From positions 21,146 through 85,145 of the forward strand of contig OZ251456.1 of the NCBI GenBank assembly GCA_965242545.1: a stretch of DNA of 64,000 bases, given 5' to 3'. The DNA is from a bacterium. Lineage in GTDB: Bacteria; UBA8248. Below are positions 7,441 to 31,410 of this stretch, one piece after another. Position numbers and translations under genes: made by a program. Within the stretch, counting starts at the first letter, position 1. Each line of letters starts with the position of its first letter. Under the pieces are notes generated by a model. That model made no database searches. It was not told the DNA's origin and saw nothing but the letters and a program-made list of their open reading frames with translations.

Positions 7441-8148
7441 GATCGGGGTGGGGAGGATGACCAGCGAGGTTCCGTAGGGGCGATCTCTCCTCGGGCTTGC
7501 CCCACGGTTCGCGAACCGCCCGTTTGGGTGGGAAGGCGATCTGGGAGAGGAGATGACCGCGATCGGAGCGGCGGGAGGAGCTGACCGATCGGGGCCGGGA
7601 GGATGGCCGCGATCGGGGCGGGGAGGCGATCCGGCCGATCGTGTCTTATTCAGAAGAAATTCCCCATCTTTCGGCGTTTTTCGTTTTGAATCAATCGGTT
7701 ATGCGTTCGCAAAAGCTGCGTGAATTCGCCTGAAAACGCCTTGAATTCGTTTTGAATTTGCTCGATGGTATTTGAATTGAAAGGTTTTCGGTTCGACGGA
7801 AAAAGACGCCCTCTTGATCGCCAATCGGGCGTGTTTCGGCTCGAATGGTACCTTTTTCGCTTCTTTTCGGGATACCGCAAATGCGGGCAAATGCGCGCGC
7901 CGCCGCGTCGCCGCCGACCCACAATCGGGGCGCATGTCCGCGCCCCCTACAATCGGACGCCACCCCACCGTGGGGCGGGCCCGGGAAGGAACCGCCCCTG
8001 CGAAACCCGTCGCGCCGCCGGGCGTCCCGCGAGGACAACCACAGGGGGTTGTCCCTACGGCAATCCGCATCGTCGGCCAATTCACGACGCGCCGCGTCGT
8101 CAACAACCCGCGATCGGGGCGCGTATATGGCGCCCTCGGCGTATTCCC
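7441..8148. repeat. left copy of a ~0.7-kb inverted repeat: 25-nt tandem GATCGGGGCGGGGAGG... units, an AT-rich ~250-bp core, and palindromic modules
   Basis: The reverse complement of 7650-7900 is ~90% identical to 30990-31245. The outer 7585-7650 matches the reverse complement of 31250-31320. The inner palindromic modules 7900-8148 match 30700-30980. Confidence 0.75.
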
Positions 8149-9543
8149 CTAGAACCGCGCGAGGAGGCTCACGCTCCCGCCGACCTCCCTGTTCTCGCCG
8201 GCGGCGGAGAAGTCCACGGAACCCCGAATCTCGTATTTTCCCTCTGCCCAGGCGTGAACGCCCCCGGCCCGCAGCCGAACCCGGGACGCCTCGGCCCTCG
8301 CCTTCAGCCGCTCGCCCGAGACCCTCGCGCTCGTCCCCGCCGAGAAGTCGTGCTCGAAGCCGGCCGCCCCGAACAGACGACCCGCGCCCGTCCGCTTCTC
8401 CACGCTCACCCCCGCCGCGCCCGTGAACATCTCGCCGTCCTCGATCGACACCCGCGAACCCACCGAGTCCGTGAAGTCGTCCAGCGAGACAGAGGAATGA
8501 ACCAGCCGGACGCGCGGCGTGAACGTCAGCCCCCCGGATTCGACCCGGCGCCCCAGCTCGACGCCCGCCGCCCAGCCCGAACCCGACGCCCCCGTCTCCA
8601 GCGCGCCCCGCGCGTCGGAGTCCAGATCCGCCTCATACGCGGTCGCCTCGAGCTGGGCGTCCAGATAGAAGCCCCCGCCAAGCCCCACGGCGGCCGAGAC
8701 GCCCACGCCGCTGCCGCTCACCTCGATCTCCCCGCTCCCGTCCACCTTCGCCGAGCCTCGCCCGTGACGCGCCGAGAAGCCGAGCAGGGCGTTCGCGCCC
8801 AGGCTCACGTCCACGCCCACCCGGACGCCGTAGCGGTCGTATTCATACGTCACGCCCGTCTCGGAGGCGTCCGCCTCCCAGTCGCCGCTCGCGCCCTCCG
8901 CCCGCGCCCAGACGCCGCGCGGCGACCGCGGCGCGCTCATCCGCTCCTCATGCGAGAGCATCCCGTTCATCCTCAGCAGAACCGAGGGCAGCGCCTCGTA
9001 GAGCTCGCAGCGGCGATCCCGCGCCCGGACACAGGAAAACACCGAGAGGTCGAGCGTCGAGAGGTCGAGCGGCTCGTCCTGGTCCTCCACCTCGAAGGTG
9101 GCGCGGTCGGTGATATTCCCCTCCTCGTCCACGAGCTCGACCTTCACGGTCTCGGCGCCCTCGACGGAGCCGCCCACCCGCTCCCGGATCGCCTCGCCCA
9201 CGTCCTCCTCATCGTCCCGCACCCGCACCGTGAGATCCACCGTCTCGCCCTTGATAAGCGGTTCGTCCGGATCGTTGTGCTCGGACCGCTTCACTGTTCC
9301 CGTTTCTCCGACCGTTATTTCCGTGGGGACGCACGACTCAACGGTGCCTATCACCTGGCCGTGAATGATGATGGTCGACCTGGGCTTCTGACGCCGCTGC
9401 CCTTCCGGGCAGTCCTCCTGCGCCCGCGCCTCCCCGGCGGAAAGCGTCAGCGCCGCCAGAAGCGCGGCGAGGAGAGGGATTCCTCGTCTCGCGCCTTTTG
9501 AACCGGGTAAAGAGCGGTCGTCTCCGTACAATCGCTTTCTCAT
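8149..9543 (-). CDS. autotransporter (type Va) outer-membrane protein: signal peptide, short passenger, C-terminal beta-barrel
   Basis: The signal peptide is MRKRL...LLAALLAALTLSAGEARAQE. The C-terminal ~300 aa are homologous to the C-terminus of the giant protein at 24042..30692 (YEALPSVLL..ERMSAPRSPRG...VRLVHSSVSLDDFTD...AGVSVEKRT...). It ends in ...LLARF, an aromatic terminal residue typical of OMPs. Confidence 0.7.
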   Translation of the reverse strand: MRKRLYGDDRSLPGSKGARRGIPLLAALLAALTLSAGEARAQEDCPEGQRRQKPRSTIIIHGQVIGTVESCVPTEITVGETGTVKRSEHNDPDEPLIKGETVDLTVRVRDDEEDVGEAIRERVGGSVEGAETVKVELVDEEGNITDRATFEVEDQDEPLDLSTLDLSVFSCVRARDRRCELYEALPSVLLRMNGMLSHEERMSAPRSPRGVWARAEGASGDWEADASETGVTYEYDRYGVRVGVDVSLGANALLGFSARHGRGSAKVDGSGEIEVSGSGVGVSAAVGLGGGFYLDAQLEATAYEADLDSDARGALETGASGSGWAAGVELGRRVESGGLTFTPRVRLVHSSVSLDDFTDSVGSRVSIEDGEMFTGAAGVSVEKRTGAGRLFGAAGFEHDFSAGTSARVSGERLKARAEASRVRLRAGGVHAWAEGKYEIRGSVDFSAAGENREVGGSVSLLARF

Positions 9544-9731: not shown

Positions 9732-9801
9732 GTTGAGCGTTGAGCGTTGAGCGTTGAGCGTTGAGCGTTGAGCGTTGAGCGTTGAGCGTTGAGCGTTGAG
9801 C
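9732..9801. repeat. heptanucleotide tandem repeat (GTTGAGC)x10
   Basis: Perfect 70-nt array ~190 nt upstream of the autotransporter start at 9543. It lies between that gene and the cas9 remnant. Confidence 0.9.
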
Positions 9802-10138
9802 GCCTTTTCCCAGCCTAACCCCTCCCGCCTCGGGGCGCAAGGGGGCGTCGGGGACGCGGGGTTTCCGAACGCGGGAGAGAGGAAGATTCTCCCGCGCGCG
9901 GGCGACGGTTCAGGCATGAAAAGACGGGCCTCCTCGATGAGGGTCGAAAGCTCGCCGGCGGAAAGCGGAACCCGTCTCCGCGGCGAGTGAAAGCGACGAT
10001 TTGGACAAGGTTACGAAAATCCGCCTCGGGCGTCAATCCGCCCCCGGAAAAGCGGGCGGGACGGGGGAGGAACCCCGCGCCGTTCGGCGAACGGAGGCGG
10101 GGGCGTTCCGACGGCGGGGCGCATGTATGCGCCCCGTT

Positions 10139-10336
10139 TCGCGTCTGGCGGCGCGCCAGACGGGCGTCCCGCCTCTTGCGGTTCTTCGGCGTCTTGCTCT
10201 TCCTGTCCACCATCTCCTGAAACGCGCGGACGCCCATGGCTTCGAGGCGCGCCGGGTCGCCCGCCTCGTCCTCCTCGACGAGCGCCCAGCCGATGGAGTT
10301 GGGCCCCAGGTCGAGACCCAGCGTCATGCGAGGCAT
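10139..10336 (-). pseudogene. cas9: cas9 N-terminal remnant (RuvC-I motif plus the start of the arginine-rich bridge helix), truncated after 66 codons
   Basis: MPRMTLGLDLGPNSIGWALVEEDEAGDPARLEAMGVRAFQEMVDRKSKTPKNRKRRDARLARRQTR. The GLDLGxNSIGWA catalytic-Asp motif sits at residue 9, and the R-rich helix GVRxF...RRxARRxTR matches type II-C Cas9 N-termini. Homology stops exactly where the palindrome GGGGCGCATGTATGCGCCCC (10116-10135) begins; the rest of ORF 9815..10336 is repeat-derived nonsense. Confidence 0.55.
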
Positions 10337-10351
10337 ATCGAAAATCTCCCC

Positions 10352-10380
10352 TTGACAATTCGCGCGGGACAGCCTATCAT
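10352..10380 (+). promoter_or_regulatory. strong sigma70-type promoter TTGACA-N17-TATCAT
   Basis: -35 at 10352-10357 and -10 at 10375-10380, divergent from and 16 nt away from the cas9-remnant ATG. Confidence 0.45.
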
Positions 10381-10384
10381 CATA

Positions 10385-10513
10385 GCAGTTTTAGCTGATC
10401 GATGCCTGCTCGCTTTTCTCAACAAGAAGAGAATCTTCGCAGGCAATTCCCCGAACGGGGAAACGACTCCACCCTCGCGATGCCTTCGGGCCCCTCCGGG
10501 GGTGTATTTTTTT
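10385..10513 (+). ncRNA. candidate structured small RNA (~130 nt), possible tracrRNA or crRNA-like relic
   Basis: The predicted transcript starts AGCAGUUUUAGCUGAUCGAUGCCUGC.... It has nested stems (UGCCUGC/GCAGGCA enclosing UUCUC/GAGAA, then UUCCCCGAACGGGGAA) and ends in a GC hairpin (GCCUUCGGGCCCCUCCGGGGG) plus a U7 run at 10507-10513, which is an intrinsic terminator. No ORF is present. Confidence 0.35.
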
Positions 10514-10685
10514 GACCCCCTCCTCCGATTCCCTCCCGGTCAATCTCTCTCCGTCCGCGGGGGGACGCGGATGTGCGTCCCGCCTCTCCCGCGTGGTTGA
10601 AAACGGGCGGCCTTGCGGCCTACACTTGGACGCGCCGCCTCGCGGCTTCCCGGCAATCTATCGGCGACGAAAAGGAGGAGCGGAC

Positions 10686-11192
10686 ATGAGAAAATTCTTC
10701 GGTGGAGCGGCGGCGCTGCTGGCCGCCGCGGCCCTCGCTTTCGGCGCGGGGAGCGCCCTCGCCGCCGAGAGCGGCAGCTTCGAGTTCTACGAGAGCGCCG
10801 TCCACGACTATTCGACCATGAAGCACGCGGACGCGGACGTCACCGTCGGGCCCCTGCATGGAACGGCCACCATCGTCAAGAGCAGCGGCGGCCCCTTCAG
10901 GGAGGGCGCGAACTTCGGCGCGACGTGCCTCGTCTACGCGCGGAAGACGAAGAAGGGCGTCCACCTCGAGGCGCCCTGCTCGTTCACCGACGCGGCGGGC
11001 GACAAGCTCTGGCTGATCGCCCGAAGGAGCATGGGCGACATCCAGGTCGGCGGCGGGGGGCGGGGCGTCCAGCGCATCGTGGGCGGCACAGGCAAATACG
11101 CCGGGGTGACCGGAAACTGCCCCTACCGGACGGACTACCTGCCGGACAAGTGGCTCGTCTCCAAATCGACCTGCAGCTGGAGCAGGCCGTGA
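10686..11192 (+). CDS. secreted small Cys-containing protein, tandem paralog 1
   Basis: Signal peptide MRKFFGGAAALLAAAALAFGAGSALAAE. Four conserved Cys (ATCLVYARKT...APCSFTD...NCPYR...STCSW). SD GGAGGAG upstream. Confidence 0.6.
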   Translation: MRKFFGGAAALLAAAALAFGAGSALAAESGSFEFYESAVHDYSTMKHADADVTVGPLHGTATIVKSSGGPFREGANFGATCLVYARKTKKGVHLEAPCSFTDAAGDKLWLIARRSMGDIQVGGGGRGVQRIVGGTGKYAGVTGNCPYRTDYLPDKWLVSKSTCSWSRP

Positions 11193-11722
11193 TCGCGCGC
11201 GGAGCGAAGCGGAAGGCGGGGAAACCGCCCGGCGCGCTCCCGGCCGCCCTGGCGGTCGCCGCGGGCCTCGCCCTCGCGGCGGGAGCCGCCCTCGCCGCCG
11301 AAAGCGGGAGCTTCGAGCTCCACGAAACCTACGCTCCCGACCTGGCGACCATGAAGCACGCGGACGCCGAGATCACCGCGGGCTCCCTGCGCGGAGCGGC
11401 CGCCATCCTCGAAAGCGGCGGCGGCCCCTTCAGGGAGGGCGCGAACTTCGGCGCGGCGTGCCTCGTCTACGCGCGGAAGACGGAAAAGGGCGTCCGCCTC
11501 GAGGCGCCCTGCGCGCTCACCGACGCCTCGGGCGACAGGCTCTGGCTGCTGGTCGAAAAGCACGAGGGCGGCGTCCGGAACAACGGCGGGCGGGGCGTTC
11601 AGCGCATCGCGGGCGGCACCGGCAAATACGCCGGGGCGCGCGGAGAATGCGCCTATCGGTCGGAAACCCTGCCGAACGGACGCCTCGTCGTCCAATCGAC
11701 CTGCAGCTGGCGCAGGCCGTAA
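11189..11722 (+). CDS. secreted small Cys-containing protein, tandem paralog 2
   Basis: ~70% identical to paralog 1 (AACLVYARKTEKGVRLEAPCALTD...ECAYRSETLPNGRLVVQSTCSW). The GTG start overlaps the paralog-1 stop (GTGA). Confidence 0.55.
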   Translation: MIARGAKRKAGKPPGALPAALAVAAGLALAAGAALAAESGSFELHETYAPDLATMKHADAEITAGSLRGAAAILESGGGPFREGANFGAACLVYARKTEKGVRLEAPCALTDASGDRLWLLVEKHEGGVRNNGGRGVQRIAGGTGKYAGARGECAYRSETLPNGRLVVQSTCSWRRP

Positions 11723-15209: not shown

Positions 15210-15986
15210 CTAGTGGCGCAGAATCTGGTTCAGGAACGTCTTGGTCCGGTCGTGCTTCGGATTGATGAAGAACTGCTGGGGCTCGTTCTGCTCCACGATC
15301 TCGCCCTCGTCCATGAAGATCACCCGGTCGGCGACCTCGCGCGCGAAGCCCATCTCGTGGGTGACGCAGAGCATGGTCATGCCCGACTCGGCCAGGCCGA
15401 CCATCACCTCCAGCACCTCCTTGATCATCTCGGGATCGAGGGCGGAGGTGGGCTCGTCGAACAGCATGACGCGCGGGTCCATGCACAGGGCGCGTGCGAT
15501 GGCGACGCGCTGCTGCTGGCCGCCGGAGAGCTGGCCCGGGTACTTGTCCGCCTGCTCGGGTATCTTGACGCGGTTCAGATACCGCATGGCGGTCTCCTCG
15601 GCCTCCTTTTTCGGAACCTTCCGCACCCAGACGGGCGCCAGCGCGCAGTTCTCCAGAACCGTCAGGTGCGGAAACAGGTTGAAGCTCTGGAACACCATGC
15701 CGACCTCGGAGCGCACCTCGTCGATGTTTCTGAGGTCGTTGGTGAGCCGCACCCCGTTGACCATGATGTCGCCCTCCTGGTGCTCCTCCAGCCGGTTAAG
15801 GCACCGCACCAGCGTGGACTTGCCGGAGCCGGAGGGGCCGCAGATGACGATGCGCTCGCCCCGCGCCACCTGCAGGTTGATGTCCTTGAGAACGTGGAAG
15901 GCGCCGAACCACTTGTTGACGCCGCGCATCTCGACCGCCGGACTCTCCGCCTTCACCTCGCCGCCTCCTTTCGCCTCGCGGGTCAT
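15210..15986 (-). CDS. polar amino acid ABC transporter ATP-binding protein
   Basis: Walker [10 protein letters not shown], signature [15 protein letters not shown] and Walker [12 protein letters not shown]. The ATG overlaps the upstream permease stop (ATGA). Confidence 0.85.
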
Positions 15987-17107
15987 CGCTCCTCCCCGCG
16001 CGAAAGCCTCTTTTCGAGCCACAGGCTGTAGCGCGACATCGAGAAGCAGAAGATGAAAAACCCGACGGCGATGAAGACGTAGAGATCGACGTCGAGCCCC
16101 AGCCATTCCTGATCCGCCACGATCGCCCGCGAGACGCCCAGCAGGTCGAAGATGCCGACGAGCGCGACCAGCGTGGTTTCCTTGTAGAGGGCGATGGCGG
16201 TGTTCACGACGCCGGGGATGGATATCTTGAGCGCCTGCGGCAGGACGATGAGCGCCGTGGTCTTCCAGTAGCCCATGCCCAGCGCGTCGCCCGCCTCGTA
16301 TTGCCCTCTCGGTATCGCCTGGAGGCCGCCGCGGATGACCTCCGCCATGTAGCCCGAGGCGAACAGGCACATGCCCACCACCGCGCGCAGATAGCCGTCG
16401 ATGGTCACCCCCTCGGGCAGGAACAGGGGCAGCGCGATGTTGGAGAAGAACAGGATGCAGATCAGCGGCACGCCCCGGATGTATTCGATGAAGACGACGC
16501 ACATCGCGCTGATGACGGGCATCTGCGAGCGGCGCCCGAGCGCCAGCAGAACGCCCAGGGGAATCGAGACCGCGATGCCGGTGACGCCCATCGTGATGGT
16601 GAGCAGCAGCCCGCCCCACCTCGCCGACTCGACGAAGGGGAGCCCGCCGAAGCCGCCGTAGAGAAGCCAGTAGGCGATGAAGGGGAAGGCGGCGCAGAAC
16701 GCCAGCCCGTATTTGCGCCCCGGCGCCCCGTCGTAAAGCCCGTAGTAGAGGGCGGCGAGCAGCAGGCAGAAGGCCAGGTTGGGCCGCCAGTGCTCGGCTT
16801 CGGGATAGAAGCCGTACATCAGCTGATCCCAGCGGGCGATGACGACCGACCAGCAGGCGCCGCCGGCGCCCGCGCACGCCGCCCGCGTGTCGCCGAAGGC
16901 GGCGTCGAAGATCATCCAGTTCAGGAGCGGCGGGATCGTGAAGTAGAGAAGCGCGAGCGAGGCGAGCGTCAGGAAGCCGTTGAAGTAGCTCGAGAAGAGG
17001 TTCTCCCGCATCCAGCCCAGCGCGCCGATCATCGTCGGCGGGGGCGGCCGGCTCGGCAGAGGGTTCCAGGCGGCGTCCCGCGCCGCTTCCGGGCTCGTCT
17101 CGCTCAT
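15983..17107 (-). CDS. amino acid ABC transporter permease (AapM-like)
   Basis: 374-aa polytopic protein with the EAA-like loop motif; part of the aap-like operon. Confidence 0.75.
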
Positions 17108-17111
17108 CGGA

Positions 17112-18290
17112 TCAGCGCTCCGTCAGCTTCACGCGCCTGTTGTACCAGTTCATGAAGGCCGAGATGAGCAGGCTGATGACGAGATAGGTTGCCATCGTCA
17201 TCGCCATGATCTCGATTTCCTTGCCTGTCTGGTTCAGCGCGATGCCGGCGTAGACCGCGAACAGCTCGGCGAAGCCGACCGCGTAGGCCAGCGAGGAGTT
17301 CTTGGTGAGGTTCAGATACTGGCTCGTCAGCGGGGGGATGATCACCCGCATCGCCTGCGGAATGATGATGAGCCGCATGTTCAGACCGCGCCTGAGACCG
17401 AGGGCGCGCGCCGCCTCCGTCTGCCCCTTGTGGACCGCCAGGACGCCGGCGCGGACGATCTCGGAGATGAAGGCGCCGGTGTAGAGCGTCAGCGCGAGGA
17501 GGATGGCGATGAACTCGGGGCGGATCACCATGCCGCCCCGGAGGTTGAAGCGCGTCGCCCGGGGGTGGAGCAGCTCGACGGGCTGGCCCGCCAGAAAATA
17601 GGCCGCCAGCGGCAGGCCCGCCAGGAGGGCGAGCGACGCCCAGAAGACGGGAAACGTCTCGCCGGTCGCTTCCTGCCGGGCGCGCGCCCATCCGCGGAGA
17701 GCGACCGCCGCCGCCGCGGCCGCGAAAAGCGCCGCCGCCACCCACCAGAAGGCCGGCTGCGGGTCGGGCGCCGGGCCGAACAGGCCCCGGTTGTTCAGAT
17801 AGAAGCCGAACCGGGGAGCGTCCGCGCGGCTCCAGCGCGGCAGCCCCAGGAGGATCGCGTACCAGAAGATGATCTGGAGAAGCAGCGGGATGTTCCGCAT
17901 GAATTCGACGTAGCAGTAGACGATCCGGCTGAGCAGCCAGTTCCGGGAGAGCCGCATCATGGCGAGAACGAAGCCGAGCATCGTCGCCAGCGCGCAGCCC
18001 AGGCTCGACACCAGGAGCGTGTTCAGAAGCCCCACGAAATAGACGTCGAGAACCGGCGAGGTCGGCGAGTAGGGAATCAGGGTCAGCGGAATGTCGAAGC
18101 CCGCCGGCTGGGTGAGGAACCAGAAGCTGATCTCCTTGCCCAGGCTGCCCATGTTCCGCGCCGCGTTGTAGGTCAGCGCGAACAGGACGAGCACCGCCAG
18201 GCCGAAGACGAGCGTCTGCGCCAGAATCGACCGGAAGCGCAGGTCGGTCCAAATCGAATCGCGTCCCCCGGCCGCCGCCTCATTCGCCAT
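17112..18290 (-). CDS. amino acid ABC transporter permease (AapQ-like)
   Basis: 392-aa polytopic permease in the same operon. Confidence 0.75.
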   Translation of the reverse strand: MANEAAAGGRDSIWTDLRFRSILAQTLVFGLAVLVLFALTYNAARNMGSLGKEISFWFLTQPAGFDIPLTLIPYSPTSPVLDVYFVGLLNTLLVSSLGCALATMLGFVLAMMRLSRNWLLSRIVYCYVEFMRNIPLLLQIIFWYAILLGLPRWSRADAPRFGFYLNNRGLFGPAPDPQPAFWWVAAALFAAAAAAVALRGWARARQEATGETFPVFWASLALLAGLPLAAYFLAGQPVELLHPRATRFNLRGGMVIRPEFIAILLALTLYTGAFISEIVRAGVLAVHKGQTEAARALGLRRGLNMRLIIIPQAMRVIIPPLTSQYLNLTKNSSLAYAVGFAELFAVYAGIALNQTGKEIEIMAMTMATYLVISLLISAFMNWYNRRVKLTER

Positions 18291-18430
18291 TGCGCCCGCC
18301 TCCGTCAGGGAAGCCCCCTTCCGCCCGAGCCGCGAGCGTCAAAAAAAGGGCGGGGCATTCCGGCTCGCGTCGTCATGCCCCGCCCCTCGAGCCTGTTCCG
18401 TGAAAGGAGGGCTCCCCGCTTCCCGAGCGG

Positions 18431-19447
18431 CTACCGGAACGGCGGCGCGTAGAGGATGCCGCCCCTGCTCCAGAGCTGGTTCAGGCCCCGCTCGAGTCCG
18501 ATCTTCGTTTTGGGGCCGATGTGGCGCTCGAAGATTTCGCCGTAGTTGCCGACGGCCTTGATGGCGCGCGCCGCCCAGTCCTTGGGCAGACCCAGCATCT
18601 TGCCGTATTCGCCCTCGGAGCCGAGGAGTCGGCGCACTTCCGGATCCTTCGAGGCCGTCATCATGGCGTCGGCGTTCGCCGCGGTGACGCCCTTCTCCTC
18701 CGCGATGATGATCGCGTTCAGCACCCAGCGCACGAGGTCGCCCCACTGGTTGTCGCCGTGGCGAACGAGCGGGCCCAGGGGCTCCTTCGAGATGATTTCC
18801 GGCAGGATGGCGTGCGCCTTCGGGTCCTTCAGAACGGCGCGGGTCGAGGCCAGGCCGGAGGCGTCCGTCGTATAGACGTCGCAGCGGCCCGCCTCGTAGC
18901 CGGCGCGCGCCTCGGCGTTCGTCTCGATGGTGATCGGCTCATACTTCATGCCGTTCGCGCGGAAGAAGTCCGCCAGGTTCAGCTCCGTCGTCGTGCCCGT
19001 CTGGATGCACACCGAGGCGCCGCCCAGCTCCTTCGCCGACTTCACGCCCAGCGCCTTGCGCACCATGAAGCCCTGGCCGTCGTAGTAGTTCACGCCGGTG
19101 AACTCGAACTTGAGGTTCACGTCGCGCGAGAACGTCCACGTCGTGTTGCGGGAGAGCAGGTCGATTTCGCCGGCCGCCAGCGCCGGGAAGCGGTTCTTGG
19201 TGGTGAGGGGCGTGAACTTCACGGCCTTCGGGTCGCCCAGCGCGGCGGCGGCGACGGCGCGGCAAACGTCCACGTCGAAGCCCCGCCACTCGCCCTTGTC
19301 GTCGGGGGCGGCGAAGCCGGGCAGGCCGGTCGAGACGCCGCAATTCAGCGATCCGCGCTTCTTCACGTCGTCCAGCGTGCCGGCGAGCGCGGCGCCCGCC
19401 GCGCAGAGCGCGAACGCCGCCGCAAGCGATGCAACGATTTTTCTCAT
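18431..19447 (-). CDS. amino acid ABC transporter substrate-binding protein (AapJ-like)
   Basis: Signal peptide MRKIVASLAAAFALCAAGAALA, followed by a periplasmic binding-protein fold. Confidence 0.8.
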   Translation of the reverse strand: MRKIVASLAAAFALCAAGAALAGTLDDVKKRGSLNCGVSTGLPGFAAPDDKGEWRGFDVDVCRAVAAAALGDPKAVKFTPLTTKNRFPALAAGEIDLLSRNTTWTFSRDVNLKFEFTGVNYYDGQGFMVRKALGVKSAKELGGASVCIQTGTTTELNLADFFRANGMKYEPITIETNAEARAGYEAGRCDVYTTDASGLASTRAVLKDPKAHAILPEIISKEPLGPLVRHGDNQWGDLVRWVLNAIIIAEEKGVTAANADAMMTASKDPEVRRLLGSEGEYGKMLGLPKDWAARAIKAVGNYGEIFERHIGPKTKIGLERGLNQLWSRGGILYAPPFR

Positions 19448-19756
19448 CTCTCCCTCTCCTCTCGATTGTGAGGCGCTGCGAACGGATTTGCGCGAATCCT
19501 CCCGTCGGGGAGGCGTGTCCGCGCTCTTCTCCCGACCCCGCGGCCGGAACAGGAAATTCCGGATCCTTCTCCATCTTCGGCCTTTGACGATGAAGTCGAT
19601 TCACTCTTATTCACGATGCGCGAAAATGTCAACAGGCGAACGGGGCGGGCGCGCCTCCGTCTCCCGTCCCGTCCCCGGTTTTCTTTCCCGAACGCCCCGT
19701 CGGTGGTATGAATGGTTCCCGTCTTCTGAGGAACCACTCGCGGATGAGGGCGCTTC

Positions 19757-22149: not shown

Positions 22150-22620
22150 ACCACCCCGCCTTTGGTCGCCGAACGGCGCGGGACGCATGTAGAAGAACGC
22201 CGCGGAGACGCCCCCGTGGCCGTCCCCTACAATGGAATATCGCCACCCTCGCCGTAGGGGGCGCATATATGCGCCCCGATTGTAGGGTTGGCGACGATGC
22301 GGATTGCCGTAGGGACAACCCCCTGTGGTTGTCCGTTGTCAACGGCGCGCGCCGGTCTGGTTTTCACCGCCGGGACGTTGCGCCCGTAGGTGAAGCGCCA
22401 AGGGGCGCTTCCCACACATACATGCGCCCCGGTTGTGGAATTGCCGACGATGCGGCGCGGACAACCACAGGGGGTTGTCCCTACGAAGGCGGAATCACCA
22501 CCGGCCCGCAGGGGTGGTTCCTTCCCGGGCCCGCCCCACGGTTCGCGGCGGCGCGCCCGCCCGTGTTCGCCGAACGGCGGGGGCATTGCCGTTCCGTCGG
22601 CGATTCGGTATGATCGCGCG
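22150..22620. repeat. palindromic intergenic repeat cluster (modules A-E)
   Basis: Contains GGGGCGCATATATGCGCCCC, GGACAACC-N-GGTTGTCCCTACG (twice), and CACCGCCGGGA-N-CCGTAGGTGAAGCGCCAAGGGGCGCTTCCCACACATA. Confidence 0.7.
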
Positions 22621-23139: not shown

Positions 23140-23760
23140 GACACAACCCCCCGTGGTTGTCCTTCATCATGTTCGTATCCCGCAGATACCCGAACCGCCC
23201 GCCTTTGGTCACCGAACGACGCGGGACGCATGTATGCGTCCCCTACGGCGAGGGTGGCGATATTCCTTTGCAGGTGACGCGCGGGAGCGCGTCCATACAT
23301 GCGCCCCGTCGTGAATTGGCCGCCGGCGCGGATTGCCGTAGGGACAACCCCCCCGTGGTTGCCCGTTGTCAACGATCCGGGCGGTTCCGCATCGGAAACG
23401 CCCCGCAATTCACGAACCGTGGGGCGGCCCCGGGGAGGGGTTGCCCCTGCGCAAAAACAAAACCGCCGCCCTGCCTTGTTCACCGCCGGGATATTTCACC
23501 CGTAGGTGAAGCGCCAAGGGGCGCTTCCCACACATATATGCGCCCCGCATGTGGAATTGGCGATGACGCGGCGCGGACAACCACGGGGGGTTGTCCCTAC
23601 GGAACCGACAAACCCGCATCACCCCGAACGGCGCGGCACCTGCGCAAAACAAAATCGTCGTCCGTCCGTGGTCGCCGGATGGATATTGCGCCCGTCCGCG
23701 CGGGACGCATATATGCGTCCCCTACAAAACCGTTGCCCGGCGCGGGTGTGAATTTTCATC
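23140..23760. repeat. palindromic intergenic repeat cluster
   Basis: GGGACGCATGTATGCGTCCC, GGGACAACC-N-GGTTGCCC, GGGGCGCATATATGCGCCCC and GGACGCATATATGCGTCCCCTAC, the same modules as at 22.2 kb. Confidence 0.7.
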
Positions 23761-23923
23761 TTGCGCGGGGGTTGAACTTCGCCAACTCTTTTTGTTACAA
23801 TGGCGGTCATCATCGGTTTTGACGCGGGACTCGAACGAAACGGGAATCGACCGCTTACAAAGGGGGCAGCGCACATGAGCATGTTCAGCTTGTCCGCGCC
23901 TTGGGATTTGGGGCATACTGGCG

Positions 23924-24023
23924 CCGACTCACCGACTCACCGACTCACCGACTCACCGACTCACCGACTCACCGACTCACCGACTCACCGACTCACCGAC
24001 TCACCGACTCACCGACTCACCGA
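23924..24023. repeat. octanucleotide tandem repeat (CCGACTCA)x12.5
   Basis: Perfect 100-nt array immediately 5-prime of the giant autotransporter gene's ATG at 24042. It lies within the TTG-initiated ORF 23901. Confidence 0.9.
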
Positions 24024-24041
24024 CATGAGAAGGGGCGCGCG

Positions 24042-27000
24042 ATGAGAACGCCGGACGGCGCGGGACGCAACTATGCGTCCCCTACAAAATCGTCGCCGCC
24101 CTGTTTCCGTAGGGGGCGCGGACAACCACGGGGGGTTGTCCCTACGGATATAAAACCGGCATGGGGGCGGCTGGCGGGGCTTCTCGCCGGCTTGGCGCTG
24201 GCGGGGCTGCTGCTGGCGCCGGGGGAGGCGCGGGCGCAAGCCCTTCTATGCGGGAACTCGAACAACGTCCGCTTGGACTGCCCGAATCGGGATTATCCCG
24301 ACGGCATCGTCTATGGCATCGCGGGCGACAGCAGCAATATCAGCCACGGCATCCCCCAGACGCTCAACCTCCTGGGCCACAGTTCCGGGCCGATCACGCT
24401 CACGGCCGGCGCCCGGGGGGTCGCCTTCGGCGCGCGAGCCAGCGGAGGGGCAGGCCTCACGTTGAACATCGGCGGCGCGACGGGCGGGACCGCCCACGTC
24501 GTCAGATTCGTCCAGGGGACGAACTCGGTCTCCGGCATCGACCGGAACAACGGCATCTATGTTTGGCGTACGGCCAACAACACCGGCGCGAGCACAACGC
24601 TGAACGTGAAAGCCGGTGTGACCATCGGCACGATGGCCACGCCGATGAAGCAGCACGGCATCTTCCTCCGCCCGCACGCCGACCGCCCCTCCGCTGGCCG
24701 GGGCAGCGCCGGCCTCACCCTCACCAGCGCGGCGACCATCCATGCCGCCCGGCAGGGCATTCGGATAGTCCGGCAGACCGGGGGCACCAACGACGCGACC
24801 ACCGTCACCAACACCGGCGCCATCCACTCGGGCGTCGGCAACGCCGCCGCCACCGGCAGCTACGTCGACCGGCCGCACGGCATCTACGCGCTGCATGGGG
24901 GGACGCAGAGGACCGGCTCGCTGACCGTCACCAACTCGGGCGACATCACGGTGGGGGGCGCCTACACCGGCATCCTGATGAACTACTGGGGCGCCGGCGC
25001 CCTGAGCCTCGACAACCGCGGGGACATCGCCGCGGCGACGGGGCAGACGGCGAAGCAGGGCATCCAGTTCAACTACAAGTACTGGGACAACCAGAGCGCC
25101 CAGGCCATCACGCTCACGAACTCCGGCGACATCACGGCGTCCGAGTTCGGCATCCGGCTCACGAAGCTCTCGGGCGGCGCGGTCGAGCTCACGAACAGCG
25201 GCGCCATCACGGTGACGGGCGACGCGGCGCAACACGCGGGGCACGCCATCTATCTGGCGGAGGGCGTCACCTTCGGCGAGGGCAGAACCTACGCCGCCAA
25301 CGGCGGCGCCCTCACGGTCGACAACAGCGGTGTCCTCAGCTCGAAGAACCACGCCCTCTACGTCTACCTGGCCACGGCGGACGACGACGTCGAGCTCGAG
25401 AACAGCGGCGACGTCGTCTCGGAGGAGGGGGACGGCATCCGGATCGAGCGGGTCGTCGAGGGCGACGTCGCGGTCGAGAACAGCGGGAGCGTCTCGGGGA
25501 AGGGCCACGGCATTTACGTGGGCCAGGCGGCGCGGATCGACTTCGAGCAGTCGGGGTCGGGGACGATCAGGGGCCGGACGGGGGTCTATCTCGGTGTCGC
25601 GAAGGAGAGCGCGTCGGGCGACTCGCGCAGCACGGACAGCGGCGGGGATCACATCCCCGCGATCGACGTGACCTGGTCGGGCGGGAGCGTGGCGCGGGGG
25701 CCGGCGACGACGGGCGCCCGCTTCACGGCGACCACCTGGCTGGAGACGTCCGTCGCCGACCGGGAGGCGACGGTGGTGAAGTCGGTGGAGGATTCGCTGC
25801 GCTGGGGGGCGGCGGCGGGTCTGGAGGCGCGCGTCCTGTCCTGGCGGGCGGTGATGGAGCAGGTGGCGGCGGGCGACGATCCGGGCGTGATAGCGAACGC
25901 GGCGGCGCAGACGACGCTGCTGGCGACGAGCGGGGCCGGTTCGCGCCGGGCGACCATCCTGGCGCAGGTCCGGGCGATGCTGGGGAACGATGACCTCTCG
26001 GTGGGGACGGATCTCCTCACCGCCATCGACTCGACGGCGACGAGCGTGAGCGACCTGAGCGACGCGGAGATCGCGACCTATCTGACCCAGGACGCCCCGG
26101 ACATCCGGATCATTCTGCGGAACATCCTGCGTTACGGCCTCTCGGCCGCCGAGAAGGCGGTTCTGGCGGCGGTCGTGGCGGGGGACGGCACGGCGCTCAC
26201 CACCGCGCTGGCCGTCACGACGCCGGCCGCCTTCTCCTCCGCCTACAAGACGGCGGTGACCGGGCTGCTGTCCCGCTACAACCTGGACGACGTCAGCGTC
26301 AGCATGACGGGCGGCGAGATCGCCTCGCGCGGCGACGGCATCCGGGCCTATTACGCGACGGCGAACGACAGCAACGGGAGCGTGGAGATCACCATCGGCG
26401 CGAACGCGGCCGTGGAGGGAGACGTCCACGGGATTCACGTTTCGGGCGGCGGGGTGAACGCCTCCAGCGTGAAGCAGCAGCGCGTCACCGTGAACGGGAG
26501 GGTGACGGGCGGGACGGGGGCGGGCGTTCACCTGGTGGGCGGGGGGACGGTGACGGTGGGCGCGGGCGGGCGCGTGGGCGCGACCTCGGGCACGGCCATC
26601 GAGACCTCGGACGGCGGCGATCTGACGGCGGCCATCTCCGGGCGGGTGGAGGGGGACATCCGGGCGGCGGGGACGCTGACGCTCACCTCGGCGGCGGGGA
26701 GCGTGATCACGGGGACGGTTCACGACCCCTCGGGTTCGCTGTCGGTGGCGGGGAGCATCGGGCGGATCGTCTATACGAGCGGGGGGACGGTGACGGTGGC
26801 GGCGGCGGGCCGGCTCACGGGGGTGTCGGGCGAGGCGGTTCGCAGCGACTCAGGCGATTTGAGCGTGACCATCGCCGGGCGGGCGACGGGCGACGTTGAG
26901 GCGGGGGGCAGCGGGAACCTGACCCTGAGCCTCACCGGGAGCGGGCGGCTGGACGGCGACGCCGAGGCGGGGGGGACGCTGACGCTGACGGCGGCGGCGG

Positions 27001-30000
27001 GGACGGTGATCACGGGGACGGTTCACGACCCTTCGAGCGCGTTCACGACGGTGTCGGGGAGCATCGGGCGGATCGTCTATACGAGCGGGGGGACGGTGAC
27101 GGTGGCCGCGGCGGGCCGGCTCACGGGGGCGTCGGGCGAGGCGGTTCGCAGCGACGCGGGCAACCTGAGCGTGACCATCGCCGGGCGGGCGACGGGCGAC
27201 GTTGAGGCGGGGGGCAGCGGGAACCTGACCCTGAGCCTCACCGGGAGCGGGCGGCTGGACGGCGACGCCGAGGCGGGGGGGACGCTGACGCTGACGGCGG
27301 CGGCGGGAACGGTGATCACGGGGACGGTTCACGACCCTTCGAGCGCGTTCTCCACGGTGTCGGGGAGCATCGGGCGGATTCTCTACACGAACGGCGGGAC
27401 GGTGGCGGTGGCCGCGGCGGGCGCTTTGACGGGGGTTTCGGGCGAGGCGGTTCGCAGCGACGCGGGCAACCTGAACGTGGACGTCTCGGGCCGGGCGGGG
27501 GGCGACGTCATCGCCAACGGCGGGGGCGATCTGGACCTGGACGTGCTGGGTTCGGGGCGGGTCGAGGGTGACGTCAAGACCTCGGGCGGGGGCGACCTGG
27601 ACGTCTCCCTGGCCGGCACCGGGCGGATTGACGGCGACGTGCGCGCCCAGGGCGGGGGCGACCTGACGCTCGCCTCGGCGGCGAATACCGTCATCACGGG
27701 CACGGCCTACGACCCGACGGGCGCGCTGTCGGTGGCGGGGAGCGTCGGACGGATTCTCTATACGAACGGCGGGGACGTGACGGTCGCATCGGGGGGCGCC
27801 CTGACGGGCATCGATGGCGTGGCCGTCCGCAGCGCCGCGGGGAACCTGGACGCCGACGTCGCCGGGCGCGCGGGAGGCGACGTCATCGCCAACGGCGGGG
27901 GCGATCTGGACGTGGACGTCTCGGGTACGGTCGCGGGCGACGTTCTGGCGAACGGCGGCGGCGACCTGACGGCGGACCTCACCGGGACCGGGCGGGTGGA
28001 AGGCGATATCCGGGCCTCGGGCGGGGGGACGCTGACGCTGACGGCGGCGGCGGGGACGGTCATCACGGGGACGGTTTACAGTCCCGCGAGTCCGTTCACG
28101 GTGTCGGGGAGCATCGGGCGGATTGTTTATACGAACGGCGGGACGGCGACGGTGGCCGCGGCGGGCGCCCTGACGGGGGTCTCGGGCGAGGCGGTTCGCA
28201 GCGAGGCGGGGGACTTGAGCGTGACCGTCGCCGGGCGCGCGGGAGGCGCCATCCTGGCGAACGGCGGGGGCGACCTGACGACGGACGTCTCGGGGACGGT
28301 CGAGGGCGACGTTATCGCCTCGGGCGGGGGCGACGTGGAGGTGGACGTCACGGCCGCCGGGCGGATCGAGGGAGACGTTCGCGCCGAGGGCGGCGGGATG
28401 CTGACGCTGACGGCGGCGGCGGGGAGCGTCATCACGGGGACGGTCTACGGCCGCCCCGCGGGCGCGTTCACGGTGGAGGGCAGCATTGGACGGCTGGTCT
28501 ACGCGAGCGGGGGCGAGGTGACGGTCGCCGAGGGCGGCGTCCTGACGGGGGTGGATACCGGGGACGGCATGGAGGTGATTCGGAGCGAGGCGGGGGATTT
28601 GAGCGTCACGGTGGCCGGGCGGATCGGGGGCGGCATCCGCTCCGCGGGCGGCCTGGACGTCACGATAACGAGCGCGGCGCCGGGCGACCTCCGCGCGGGC
28701 GGCGACATGACGGCGGATATATCCGGGACGGTCGAGGGCGACCTGGACGCCGGCGGCGATTTGACGGCGACGATCACCGGGGAAGTCGAGGGCGACCTCG
28801 CCGCCGGGGGCGACATGACGGCGGAGATTTCGGGAACGGTCGAGGGGAGCGTCCGCGCGGGCGGGGCCGTGACGGCGGAGCTCTCCGGGCGGATCGAGGG
28901 CGACCTGGACGCCGGCGGGGCGCTGGCGCTGACGGCGACGTCGGGGAGCGTCATCGCGGGCACGCTTCGCGGCCCCGGGGGCGCGTTCACGGTGAGGGGG
29001 AGCATCGGGCGGATCCTTTACCGGGGGGCGGGGACGGTGACCGTGCCCGAGGGCGGCGTTCTGACGGGCGTGGATACCGGGGACGGCATGGAGGTGATTC
29101 GGGGCGAGGCGGGGGACTTGAGCGTGGTGGTGGCCGGGACGGTGGGGGGCGGCATCCGCTCCGCGGGCGGCCTGGACGTCACGATAACGAGCATGGTGCC
29201 GGGCGACGTTCGCGCGGGCGGCGACGTGACGGCGGACGTCTCCGGGACGCTGACCGGCGACCTGGACGCCGGGGGCGACATGACGGCGGATATCACCGGG
29301 ACGCTGACGGGCGACGTGGTCGCCGGGGGTGATTTGACGGCGGATATTTCGGGGACGGTTGACGGGAGCGTCCGCTCCGGGGGCGACCTCACGGCGGTGA
29401 TCACCGGGATGGTGACGGGCGACGTGGAGGGACCGGGCGCGGGCGATCACACCGTGACGGTCTCGGCGGGGGCGGTGGTGACGGGAACGGTTCACCTGGC
29501 GGCCTCCACCGTGCGGGTGGACGGGACGGTGGGCGGGGTGCGCTTCCGGCGGGGCGGAACCCTCACCATCGGGCCGAACGGGCGGATACTGGCGGGCGAA
29601 GGGGTGGCGATACGCAACGACCGGGGCGCGCTGACGGTGACGATAGAGGCGGCCCCGGGCGAGCGGCCCGAGGAGAGCGTCGCCCGGGTGGAGGGGACGG
29701 TGGTGGACCCGGGCGGGAACGAGCGGGCGCGGACGCTGACCCTCCTCTCGACGGACGGGCAGACGGCCGAGCTGAGCCTGGACCTGGAGGGGCGGATCAG
29801 GAGCGGCCTGCCCCCGCGCGCGAAGGTGTATGAGGCGCTGCCCTCGGTTCTGCTGGGCATGAGCCGCCCGCTCTCCTACGGGGAGCGGCTGAGCGCGCCG
29901 CGCTCGCCCCGGGGCGCCTGGGCGCGGGTCGAGGGCGCGAGCGCCAGCTGGAAGGCGGTCTCCTCCGCCTCGGACGCGGAATACGACATGAAGCGCCACG

Positions 30001-30699: not shown

Positions 30700-31410
30700 A
30701 CGCGAAAACGCGAATCGACCGGGCGCGGGGAACGGCGAATCACGCCCCCGCGCCCGGTTTTTTGCGCGGCAAAACGGGACGCATATATGCGTCCCCTACG
30801 GGCCGGGGGTGGCGTCATCCAATTGTAGGGGGCGCGGACACCCGCCCCGCACCTGCGCGTCACCTACCCCCTACGCAAAACCGCCGCCCTGTTTCCGTAG
30901 GGGGCGCATATATGCGCCCCGATTGTGGGACGGCGACGACGCGGCGCGGACAACCACGGGGGGTTGTCCCTACGGAAACAAAATTCCCCGCGCGCATTTG
31001 CCCGCATTTGCCGTCGCCCGAAAAGAAGCGAAAAAGGTACCATTCGAGCTGAAACGCGCCCGATTCCCGATCAAAAAGGCGTCTTTTTCCGTCGAACCGA
31101 AAATCTTTCAATTCAAATACAATCGAGCGAATTCAAAACGAATTCAAGGCGTTTTCAGGCGAATTGACGCAGCTTTCAGGAACGCATAACCGCTTGATTC
31201 AAAACGAAAAACGCCGAAACGCGGGGAATTTTATCTGGATAAGACCCGATCGGGCGGATCGCCCTCTCGCCCCGATCCCGGCCATTCTCCCGGCCCCGAT
31301 CTGCCATTCCGCCGCGCCGGGGTCGGCTCATCCTCTCCCCGCTCCGATCGGCCCCTCCACCGGGAGTGGTTTCCCCCTCGCCCCCGAAGCCCGGATCCCG
31401 ACCATCGCTC
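30700..31410. repeat. right copy of the ~0.7-kb inverted repeat (see 7441..8148)
   Basis: 30990-31245 is ~90% identical to the reverse complement of 7650-7900. It includes palindromic modules and 25-nt GATCGGGGC... units. Confidence 0.75.

What the first reader, a model, noticed from the sequence alone, without database searches (positions are those of the whole stretch)
10352..10513. Promoter- and terminator-delimited structured small RNA beginning GUUUUAG, divergent from the cas9 remnant
A near-consensus sigma70 promoter (TTGACA-17-TATCAT) drives a ~130-nt transcript. It has nested stems (UGCCUGC/GCAGGCA, UUCUC/GAGAA, UUCCCC/GGGGAA) and a GC hairpin plus a U7 intrinsic terminator. There is no coding potential. 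Its 5-prime portion, GUUUUAGCUGAUCGAUGCCUGCUCGCUUUUCUCAAC, starts like a type II CRISPR repeat and ends ...AAC. Location and architecture fit a surviving tracrRNA, or a single-repeat relic from the lost array. Alternatively it is an unrelated sRNA that has captured the divergent cas9 promoter region.
Basis: partly seen in the sequence, partly recalled or inferred. Interest (0 to 1): 0.6.

Follow-up and report, generated by a model that had tools for sequence, protein, structure and literature searches.

The report
Orphan tracrRNA beside a cas9 stub
This small RNA gene is the tracrRNA (the helper RNA that Cas9 needs) of a type II-C CRISPR-Cas9 locus that has lost almost all of cas9, plus cas1, cas2 and its spacer array, so it is a well-preserved leftover of a known kind of system, not a new one.

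Summary
A near-consensus sigma-70 promoter (10352-10380) and a hairpin-plus-U7 terminator (10470-10513) bound a ~127-nt non-coding transcript, divergent from a 66-codon cas9 stub.

It is a tracrRNA. The closest relatives of the stub have full ~1000-aa Cas9 genes with cas1, cas2 and arrays. They carry a homologous RNA gene in the same divergent position. In the 48 related loci where an array was compared, the first ~36 nt of that RNA mirror the locus's own repeat on the opposite strand. The RNA is therefore complementary to crRNA transcribed antisense to cas9, as in type II-C systems.

A covariance model trained only on loci that retain cas9 coding sequence and an array hits the window once, at 10388-10512 (65 bits, E 8e-15). 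The window's anti-repeat would pair 33/36 with the repeat of relative L009 (-58 kcal/mol).

The 64-kb window holds no array, cas1, cas2 or further cas9 sequence. A REP-like palindrome sits about 10 nt beyond the break. The RNA shows no excess decay, so the loss is probably recent; retained function cannot be excluded.

Side observations: three independent stubs all break in the bridge-helix coding stretch, and the family has a predicted self-masking hairpin. Verdict: new member of a known kind, low to moderate interest.

The parts
10352..10380 (+). Sigma-70-type promoter of the tracrRNA gene: -35 TTGACA (10352-10357), 17-nt spacer, -10 TATCAT (10375-10380)
   Evidence: Consensus scan gives 11 of 12 matches, with 0.0 sites expected in shuffles. 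The first three -35 bases (TTG) are invariant in all 8 close homologues and TTGAC is kept in 6 of them (alignment A2).
10387..10513 (+). tracrRNA transcript (about 127 nt; start inferred 7-8 nt after the -10 box, end at the U-tract)
   Evidence: Covariance model R1, trained on 27 related loci that each have an array and cas9 coding sequence and excluding the window, hits only 10388-10512 (+). The hit is 65.2 bits, E 7.6e-15 and full length. Fold z = -2.7.
10388..10423 (+). Anti-repeat, 36 nt: GUUUUAGCUGAUCGAUGCCUGCUCGCUUUUCUCAAC
   Evidence: Pairs 33 of 36 (22 of the first 22) with the crRNA-sense repeat of relative L009. Duplex energy is -58.1 kcal/mol against -17.1 +/- 3.4 for shuffled repeats. 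In the 48 array-bearing loci compared, the homologous segment mirrors the locus's own repeat. No complementary partner exists in the window.
10426..10438 (+). Stem-loop 1 (nexus position): GAAGA-GAA-UCUUC
   Evidence: The hairpin position is kept, with different or much longer stems, in L005, L026, L036, L042, L062, L065 and L082. It forms in the cofold once a crRNA repeat occupies the anti-repeat. Its three basal pairs are conserved, with little covariation.
10439..10446 (+). Conserved linker GCAGGCAA. In the free RNA it can pair with UGCCUGC (10403-10409) of the anti-repeat.
   Evidence: Near-invariant across the family (A3). The minimum-energy fold of the free RNA pairs it with the anti-repeat. 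The same is predicted in 42 homologues.
10447..10462 (+). Stem-loop 2: UUCCCC-GAAC-GGGGAA
   Evidence: 98.9% of cells are paired across 29 sequences, and 4 of 6 pairs show changes on both sides.
10470..10513 (+). Intrinsic terminator: stem 10470-10504 followed by U7 at 10507-10513
   Evidence: Terminator scan and fold. Five of 7 stem pairs show changes on both sides across the family.
10145..10336 (-). cas9 stub: codons 1 to about 64-66 (RuvC-I motif GLDLGPNSIGWA and the start of the Arg-rich bridge helix). The open frame runs on by chance to 9815.
   Evidence: Translation. tblastn with full-length Cas9 proteins of L005-L010 gives 73-80% identity over 10145-10357 and nothing else in 64 kb. blastn homology ends at 10140-10148. 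The L009 protein is a bona fide Cas9 by Pfam: RuvC_III, HNH_4 and Cas9_a.
10116..10135 (.). REP-like palindrome GGGGCGCATGTATGCGCCCC about 10 nt beyond the point where cas9 homology stops; a candidate for the rearrangement that removed the rest of the locus
   Evidence: Eight copies of the family occur in the window against 0 expected. A causal role is inferred only.

Best explanation
The element is the tracrRNA gene of a type II-C CRISPR-Cas9 locus that has been gutted.

In intact relatives the RNA is transcribed divergently from just upstream of cas9. Its first 36 nt (the anti-repeat) hybridise to the repeat in each crRNA. The crRNAs are transcribed from the array in the direction opposite to cas9. 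Cas9 then binds the duplex together with the downstream scaffold: stem-loop 1, the GCAGGCAA linker, stem-loop 2 and the terminator hairpin. This gives the active DNA-cutting complex.

In this window a rearrangement removed cas9 from about codon 66 onward, together with cas1, cas2 and the array. A REP-like palindrome lies about 10 nt past the break.

- Shown: the RNA gene still has an intact promoter, anti-repeat, scaffold and terminator. It is homologous to the tracrRNAs of loci with cas9 and arrays. Those tracrRNAs are complementary to their own loci's repeats. The partners are absent from the window.
- Inferred: the RNA is probably still made but has no crRNA and no Cas9 to work with in these 64 kb. 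It is most likely a recent, not yet decayed remnant. Transcription, the direction of array transcription, the recency of the loss and the role of the REP-like element are all inferences.
For: 1. Homology and position. The closest relatives of the stub (L005-L010, 74-80% aa identity) encode full 986-1009-aa Cas9 proteins, each followed by a Cas1-sized ORF. Five of the six also have an array in the fetched DNA. All six carry a 77-88% identical RNA gene (61% for L007) in the same divergent position.
2. Anti-repeat. In all 48 array-bearing loci compared, the RNA's 5' ~36 nt mirror that locus's own repeat on the opposite strand. Own repeat versus other loci's repeats gives 21.1 versus 17.1 pairs over the first 22 nt. 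The own repeat is best or tied best in 30 of 35 loci.
3. Array direction. The reverse-complemented repeat GUUGUGG...CUAAAAU has the GUUG start and the -10-like TAAAAT end that I recall for N. meningitidis and C. jejuni repeats. Arrays transcribed opposite to cas9 are documented for those species (PMC3737331).
4. Model. A covariance model built without the window or L001 hits the window once, full length, at 65.2 bits and E 7.6e-15.
5. Structure. Stem-loop 2 is 98.9% paired with compensatory changes in 4 of 6 pairs, and the terminator stem covaries.
6. Pairing capacity. The window's anti-repeat forms a -58 kcal/mol duplex with the L009 repeat, against -17 +/- 3.4 for shuffled repeats.
7. Orphan state. 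Only Cas9 residues 1 to about 66 are present. No cas1, cas2, other cas9 piece, array or complementary sequence exists in the window.
8. Orthologous site. Window 15220-19463 is 83% identical to L006 3323-7580, which lies next to L006's tracrRNA and cas9.
9. No excess decay. The window RNA has 6 private differences, and none lies in stem-loop 1, the GCAGGCAA linker or stem-loop 2. L005, L006 and L007, which have full cas9, have 10, 7 and 37.
Against: - There are no expression data, so transcription rests on consensus motifs and their conservation.
- The defining test, pairing with the locus's own repeats, cannot be done because the window has no array. The evidence is by homology to relatives.
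- The direction of array transcription in this clade is inferred, not measured.
- Only 64 kb of the genome is visible. A second type II locus elsewhere could make the RNA functional instead of a relic.
- The good preservation of promoter, stems and terminator fits selection as well as it fits recent loss.
- The gene order around the locus differs from L007 in a way that one simple deletion does not explain.
Confidence: 0.8

Rival explanations
1. The tracrRNA is still in service. Another type II-C locus elsewhere in the genome, outside the window, supplies Cas9 and crRNAs with a matching repeat. This copy then acts in trans as a spare or as the main tracrRNA.
For: Promoter, anti-repeat, scaffold and terminator are all intact. 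The window RNA has no more private changes than L005, L006 or L007, which have full cas9. Compared with its closest homologues, the stem-loop 1 closing pair (C-G to A-U) and the outermost terminator pair (A-U to C-G) differ on both sides, which keeps both stems.
Against: Nothing in the 64 kb supports it: no cognate repeat, cas1, cas2 or second cas9. The syntenic site in L006 holds that genome's CRISPR locus, so this is the ancestral locus, not an extra copy.
Confidence: 0.12
2. The orphan RNA has been taken over as a stand-alone regulatory sRNA. In its free fold the first ~15 nt are single-stranded, followed by hairpins and a terminator, so it could base-pair with mRNAs without Cas9.
For: The predicted free form has an unpaired 5' tail, a stable hairpin and an intrinsic terminator. 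tracrRNA genes persist next to cas9 stubs in three independent lineages: the window, L001 and L016.
Against: No target was identified, and no complementary sequence occurs in the window above chance. In L001 the anti-repeat has four private substitutions at otherwise invariant positions, as expected for decay and not for a conserved seed. Persistence in three lineages is also expected from ascertainment, because loci were found through the cas9 N-terminus.
Confidence: 0.05
3. It is a solitary, degenerate CRISPR repeat left from the lost array, which by chance sits between a promoter-like and a terminator-like site.
For: The first 36 nt are repeat-like: 22 of 22 identical to the cas9-sense strand of the L009 repeat.
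Against: In relatives that still have arrays, the same element lies upstream of cas9 on the opposite strand, more than 4 kb from the array. It is followed by about 90 nt of conserved scaffold with covarying hairpins. The whole 125 nt matches the covariance model, not just the repeat-like part.
Confidence: 0.01
4. It is a cis-acting leader (attenuator or riboswitch) of the downstream gene at 10686-11192.
For: It lies 173 nt upstream of that gene on the same strand and ends in a terminator.
Against: Homologues are followed by unrelated sequence in other genomes and are always tied to cas9. In L007 the homologue of the downstream gene lies beyond the array, not next to the RNA. A separate promoter-like site at 10597-10626 lies between the terminator and the gene. 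No Rfam riboswitch or leader matched.
Confidence: 0.01

Closest known systems
Type II-C tracrRNAs of Neisseria meningitidis and Campylobacter jejuni
   Same: Compact Cas9 of about 1000 aa with cas1 and cas2. In those two species the array is transcribed opposite to cas9 (PMC3737331). From memory, their repeats start GUUG/GUUU and end in a -10-like TACAAT/TAAAAT, and the anti-repeat is followed by AAG and then scaffold hairpins and a terminator.
   Different: No detectable sequence similarity and no Rfam hit. The gene lies divergently upstream of cas9, not inside or after the cas operon. The segment after the anti-repeat can fold back on the anti-repeat in the free RNA. Here the Cas9, cas1, cas2 and array partners are missing.
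Streptococcus pyogenes tracrRNA (type II-A) and its long form tracr-L
   Same: An RNA gene upstream of cas9; 'upstream of cas9' is one of the four typical tracrRNA positions (PMC3737331). The free RNA has an internal fold that involves the anti-repeat. From memory (Workman et al. 2021, not checked here), tracr-L folds on itself into a natural single guide.
   Different: The order is reversed: anti-repeat first, then the repeat-like segment. The self-hairpin therefore has the opposite polarity to an sgRNA and cannot present a guide in the same way. There is no evidence for promoter targeting. The Cas9 subtype differs.
Degenerate or orphan CRISPR-Cas loci (orphan arrays, cas pseudogenes)
   Same: Partial loss of a defence locus that leaves non-functional pieces. 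L016 keeps a tracrRNA, a cas9 stub and a short array remnant (one full repeat, one degenerate repeat and a partial repeat).
   Different: The piece that survives intact here is the tracrRNA gene, not the array. The literature search found the term 'orphan tracrRNA' only in the acknowledgements of one 2026 preprint, so such relics seem little described.
Francisella novicida scaRNA/tracrRNA gene regulation
   Same: A precedent for type II small RNAs acting outside immunity (from memory).
   Different: That mechanism needs Cas9, which is absent here. There is no evidence of an mRNA target.

Membership tests
tracrRNA (trans-activating CRISPR RNA of type II systems; criteria of Chylinski et al. 2013, PMC3737331) | An anti-repeat able to base-pair with the repeats of the associated CRISPR array | tested here: inconclusive
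   The window has no array to test against. By proxy, the anti-repeat pairs 33 of 36 with the L009 repeat, at -58 versus -17 kcal/mol for shuffles. The homologous segment matches the locus's own repeat in the 48 array-bearing loci compared.
tracrRNA (trans-activating CRISPR RNA of type II systems; criteria of Chylinski et al. 2013, PMC3737331) | Intergenic location in a type II locus at a typical position (here, upstream of cas9) | tested here: met
   It lies 50 nt from the start of the cas9 stub, on the divergent strand. Most of the related loci inspected, including all six closest relatives, show the same arrangement.
tracrRNA (trans-activating CRISPR RNA of type II systems; criteria of Chylinski et al. 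2013, PMC3737331) | Own promoter and Rho-independent terminator flanking the anti-repeat | tested here: met
   TTGACA-17-TATCAT, plus a hairpin followed by U7. The -35 TTG is invariant in all 8 close homologues and TTGAC is kept in 6; the terminator is conserved across them. These are motif matches only.
tracrRNA (trans-activating CRISPR RNA of type II systems; criteria of Chylinski et al. 2013, PMC3737331) | Homology in sequence and structure to tracrRNAs of loci with cas9 and an array from the same Cas9 clade | tested here: met
   Model R1, built from 27 such loci with the window excluded, gives a single hit at 10388-10512: 65.2 bits, E 7.6e-15, full length.
tracrRNA (trans-activating CRISPR RNA of type II systems; criteria of Chylinski et al. 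2013, PMC3737331) | Expression, pairing or co-processing with pre-crRNA, and binding by Cas9 | not testable with these tools
   Needs RNA-seq or Northern blots and biochemistry.
Functional type II-C CRISPR-Cas locus | Full-length cas9 with RuvC and HNH domains | tested here: not met
   Only residues 1 to about 66 are present. The 64-aa stub has no Pfam domain, whereas L009 Cas9 has RuvC_III, HNH_4 and Cas9_a.
Functional type II-C CRISPR-Cas locus | cas1, cas2 and a repeat-spacer array | tested here: not met
   No tblastn hit to the cas-region ORFs of the relatives. No array-like repeat family in 64 kb. No cognate repeat.
Any described Rfam family (release 15) | Score at or above the family's gathering threshold | tested here: not met
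   No hits at gathering thresholds in the whole window. The only hits in the region were chance-level, at E 2.8 and 5.3.
Solitary CRISPR repeat relic | A repeat in array position and orientation, with no conserved flanking scaffold | tested here: not met
   It lies on the opposite side of cas9 and on the opposite strand from the arrays of relatives. It has about 90 nt of conserved, covarying scaffold.

The most novel reading that the evidence does not exclude
tracrRNA genes that outlive their cas9 may be kept by selection, not left as passive debris. The window, L001 and L016 each retain a tracrRNA next to a cas9 stub that breaks within the same 30-codon stretch (the Arg-rich bridge helix). 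The free RNA is predicted to fold with a single-stranded 5' tail. The RNA, perhaps with the Arg-rich stub peptide, could then act as a Cas9-independent regulator. Alternatively, the bridge-helix coding stretch could be a specific hot spot for the loss of cas9.
Probability: 0.06. Interest if true: 0.7.

Novelty: new member of a known kind. Interest (0 to 1): 0.3.

Why it matters
For this genome, it means the CRISPR-Cas9 locus at this site is dead and should not be annotated as a working defence system or as a new sRNA class.

More widely, the comparison defines the tracrRNA of a large clade of compact type II-C Cas9s: anti-repeat, AA, stem-loop 1, GCAGGCAA, stem-loop 2, terminator. The clade is mostly from Planctomycetota and related uncultured lineages, and its tracrRNA is not in Rfam. 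This could help guide-RNA design for those enzymes.

Two by-products are worth a specialist's look but are not established here:
- cas9 broke independently at nearly the same place, in the bridge-helix coding stretch, in three lineages that all kept the tracrRNA.
- A fold that masks the anti-repeat is predicted across the family.

Tried and rejected
- Rfam, both at gathering thresholds over the whole window and at permissive E-values around the region: nothing relevant.
- Exact-sequence look-ups of two window proteins, to find the source genome: not on record. The nearest relatives are unclassified MAGs and one Nitrospinota MAG.
- Metagenome scan for the conserved scaffold GCAGGCAATTCCCCG...CGGGGAAACGA: 0 hits.
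- Metagenome scan for the anti-repeat core GCTGATCGATGCCTG: 120 or more single chance matches and no arrays. Uninformative.
- Search for a partner of the anti-repeat in the window: only the element itself for the 36-mer at up to 3 mismatches, and a chance-level hit for the 16-mer core.
- Reconstructing the deletion from synteny. L006 shares the ABC-transporter side. However, the relatives' loci end inside or just after their arrays. The one shared downstream gene (L007 15970-16161, matching window 10997-11175) lies on the other side of the RNA in the window. A single clean deletion could not be shown.
- Testing the free-form hairpin (UGCCUGC/GCAGGCA) by covariation. Both strands are nearly invariant, with one covarying terminal pair, and eight of 29 sequences break one pair. 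The column test is inconclusive, and only the energy comparison supports the hairpin.
- The first protein search returned only short fragments. This briefly suggested a family of small proteins. They turned out to be contig ends, frameshifted long-read assemblies (L003, L004) or a true stub (L001).

Full report
**Observation**

A promoter, TTGACA-17 nt-TATCAT, lies at 10352-10380. It matches 11 of 12 consensus positions, in a G+C-rich stretch where shuffles give essentially no such sites. A G+C-rich hairpin followed by seven T's ends at 10513. The ~127-nt RNA in between folds at -46.4 kcal/mol, z = -2.7. No Rfam family matches, at curated thresholds over the whole window or at permissive thresholds locally. 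On the other strand, starting 50 nt from the promoter, an ORF begins MPRMTLGLDLGPNSIGWALV..., which is the RuvC-I motif and the start of the Arg-rich bridge helix of Cas9.

**Finding relatives**

A protein search with the 67-residue N-terminus returned only short fragments. Their contigs showed why. Some are contig ends, two are frameshifted long-read assemblies that still carry cas9 pieces, cas1, cas2 and arrays (L003, L004), and one is another true stub (L001). All carried a related small RNA gene divergently upstream of cas9.

A scan of one genome per prokaryotic species with the N-terminal alignment gave 80 loci. The six closest (L005-L010, 74-80% aa identity) encode full Cas9 proteins of 986-1009 aa, each followed by a Cas1-sized ORF. 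Five of the six also have an array in the fetched DNA. The L009 protein has the RuvC_III, HNH_4 and Cas9_a domains. Each of the six has an RNA gene in the same place as the window's, with a matching promoter, 77-88% identical in five of them and 61% in L007.

**Why it is a tracrRNA**

The arrays of these loci lie downstream of cas2. Read on the cas9 strand, their repeats are, for example, ATTTTAGCTGATCGATGCCTGCCCGCAATCCACAAC in L009. The small RNA is encoded on the opposite strand, yet its first 36 nt read almost the same: window GTTTTAGCTGATCGATGCCTGCTCGCTTTTCTCAAC. It is therefore complementary to an array transcript made antisense to cas9.

That is the arrangement reported for N. meningitidis and C. 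jejuni (PMC3737331). The reverse-complemented repeat (GUUGUGG...CUAAAAU) has the GUUG start and -10-like end that I recall for repeats of that subtype. The array direction in this clade remains an inference.

Three further lines of evidence support the assignment.

- In all 48 array-bearing loci compared, the upstream RNA's 5' end tracks that locus's own repeat, including clade-specific differences.
- Pairing with the own repeat beats pairing with other loci's repeats: 21.1 versus 17.1 of 22 positions, and the own repeat is best or tied best in 30 of 35 loci.
- A recurrent pair of U-U mismatches near the 3' end of the anti-repeat gives the usual internal bulge.

The window's anti-repeat would pair 33 of 36 with the L009 repeat. 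The duplex energy is -58 kcal/mol, against -17 +/- 3.4 for shuffled repeats.

**Scaffold**

After the anti-repeat come, in order:

- AA
- a hairpin, GAAGA-GAA-UCUUC in the window
- the near-invariant GCAGGCAA
- a second hairpin, UUCCCC-GAAC-GGGGAA
- a short linker
- the terminator

Across 29 sequences the second hairpin is 98.9% paired, with changes on both sides in 4 of 6 pairs, and the terminator stem covaries. The first hairpin's position is confirmed by lineages where it is replaced by a different or much longer stem: L005, L026, L036, L042, L062, L065 and L082.

A covariance model built from 27 related loci that each have an array and cas9 coding sequence, without the window or L001, finds exactly one match in the 64-kb window. 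The match is at 10388-10512 on the plus strand, full length, 65.2 bits, E 7.6e-15.

**What is missing**

tblastn with the cas-region ORFs of the relatives finds only Cas9 residues 1 to about 66 in the window (10145-10357) and nothing else. Nucleotide homology stops at 10140-10148. The window has no CRISPR-like repeat family. It also has no sequence complementary to the anti-repeat beyond chance.

A 20-nt palindrome, GGGGCGCATGTATGCGCCCC (10116-10135), lies about 10 nt beyond the break. It belongs to a REP-like family with eight copies in the window against none expected. Its involvement in the rearrangement is only an inference.

The site is orthologous to a live locus. Window 15220-19463 (an amino-acid ABC transporter operon) is 83% identical to the DNA next to the tracrRNA and cas9 of L006. 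The gene order differs from L007 in a way one deletion does not explain.

**State of the relic**

The window's RNA has six private differences from its seven close homologues. Three are in the 3' half of the anti-repeat and three are in the terminator loop. None is in stem-loop 1, the GCAGGCAA linker or stem-loop 2. L005, L006 and L007, which have full cas9, have 10, 7 and 37 private differences. Compared with its closest homologues, the closing pair of the first hairpin and the outermost terminator pair differ on both sides, which keeps both stems. The promoter is closer to consensus than in several loci with full cas9.

There is thus no sign of decay. That fits a recent loss, which I favour because no partner is visible. 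It also fits continued use with a Cas9 encoded elsewhere, which cannot be excluded from 64 kb. By contrast, the second orphan (L001) has four private substitutions in the otherwise invariant anti-repeat core.

**Side observations**

1. Three independent stubs were seen: the window (break near codon 66), L001 (near codon 59) and L016 (codon 88). In L016 the break is fused through a CTG microhomology to the last 15 nt of a repeat, leaving a short array remnant. All three breaks lie in the bridge-helix coding stretch. No break was seen elsewhere in cas9 among the 84 loci. The sample is small and was found through the N-terminus, so this is a lead, not a result.
2. In 42 homologues the 3' half of the anti-repeat is predicted to pair with the segment that precedes and includes GCAGGC. 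The mean is 14 pairs and the mean z is -2.6 against shuffled anti-repeats. When a crRNA repeat is added, the fold switches to the intermolecular duplex plus the first hairpin. Covariation cannot confirm this, because both strands are nearly invariant.

**Verdict**

The element is a well-preserved orphan tracrRNA of a degraded type II-C locus. It is a new member of a known kind, ordinary in mechanism and of modest interest.

Noticed in passing
window 10145 (break); L001 about 5176; L016 4324-4470: Three independent cas9 stubs keep their tracrRNA and break within about 30 codons of each other (codons ~66, ~59 and 88), all in the Arg-rich bridge-helix coding stretch. In L016 the stub is joined through a CTG microhomology to the last 15 nt of a CRISPR repeat, followed by one full and one degenerate repeat. 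No other truncation points were seen among the 84 loci.
   Followed up: partly
window 10403-10445, and homologous positions in 42 loci: The 3' half of the anti-repeat is predicted to pair with the segment just before and including GCAGGC, so the free tracrRNA masks part of its own anti-repeat (mean 14 pairs, mean z -2.6). The fold switches to stem-loop 1 when a crRNA repeat is supplied. Column covariation could not confirm it.
   Followed up: partly
window 7927-7946, 10116-10135, 22258-22277, 23223-23242, 23702-23721, 24062-24081, 30776-30795, 30901-30920: A REP-like 20-nt palindrome family, GGGRCGCATRYATGCGYCCC, has eight copies against none expected. One copy sits about 10 nt beyond the cas9 break.
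   Followed up: partly
window 8017-8073, 22443-22499, 23559-23615, 24104-24160, 30932-30988; L005 13265-13289: A second palindromic repeat family, GGACAACCACGGGGGGTTGTCC, is present. Sequence flanking its 30932-30988 copy (window 30991-31015) also matches DNA about 60 nt after the end of the CRISPR array in relative L005.
   Followed up: no
window 9732-9802: A perfect tandem repeat (GTTGAGC) x 10 lies in the non-coding stretch between the cas9 stub's chance ORF and the autotransporter gene (8149-9543, minus strand).
   Followed up: no
window 23924-24027: An 8-nt tandem repeat (CCGACTCA)n lies at the 5' end of a 2263-aa ORF (23901-30692) that is full of internal repeats. Its C-terminal segment resembles that of the 464-aa autotransporter at 8149-9543. 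It may be a slippage-prone tract, which would suggest phase variation.
   Followed up: no
window 10686-11192 and about 11220-11722; L007 15970-16161: Two tandem paralogues (83% nucleotide identity) encode small proteins with a signal-peptide-like N-terminus; the first copy, the only one scanned, has no Pfam match. The homologue in L007 lies beyond the CRISPR array, on the other side of the locus from where it sits in the window. This points to rearrangements beyond a simple deletion.
   Followed up: partly
window 15220-19463; L006 3323-7580: 4.3 kb of an amino-acid ABC transporter operon is 83% identical to DNA next to the tracrRNA and cas9 of an unclassified MAG. This places the window's organism near that lineage. 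The window has about 4.7 kb (symporter, hydrolase, two secreted-protein genes) between the operon and the tracrRNA, where L006 has about 0.25 kb.
   Followed up: partly
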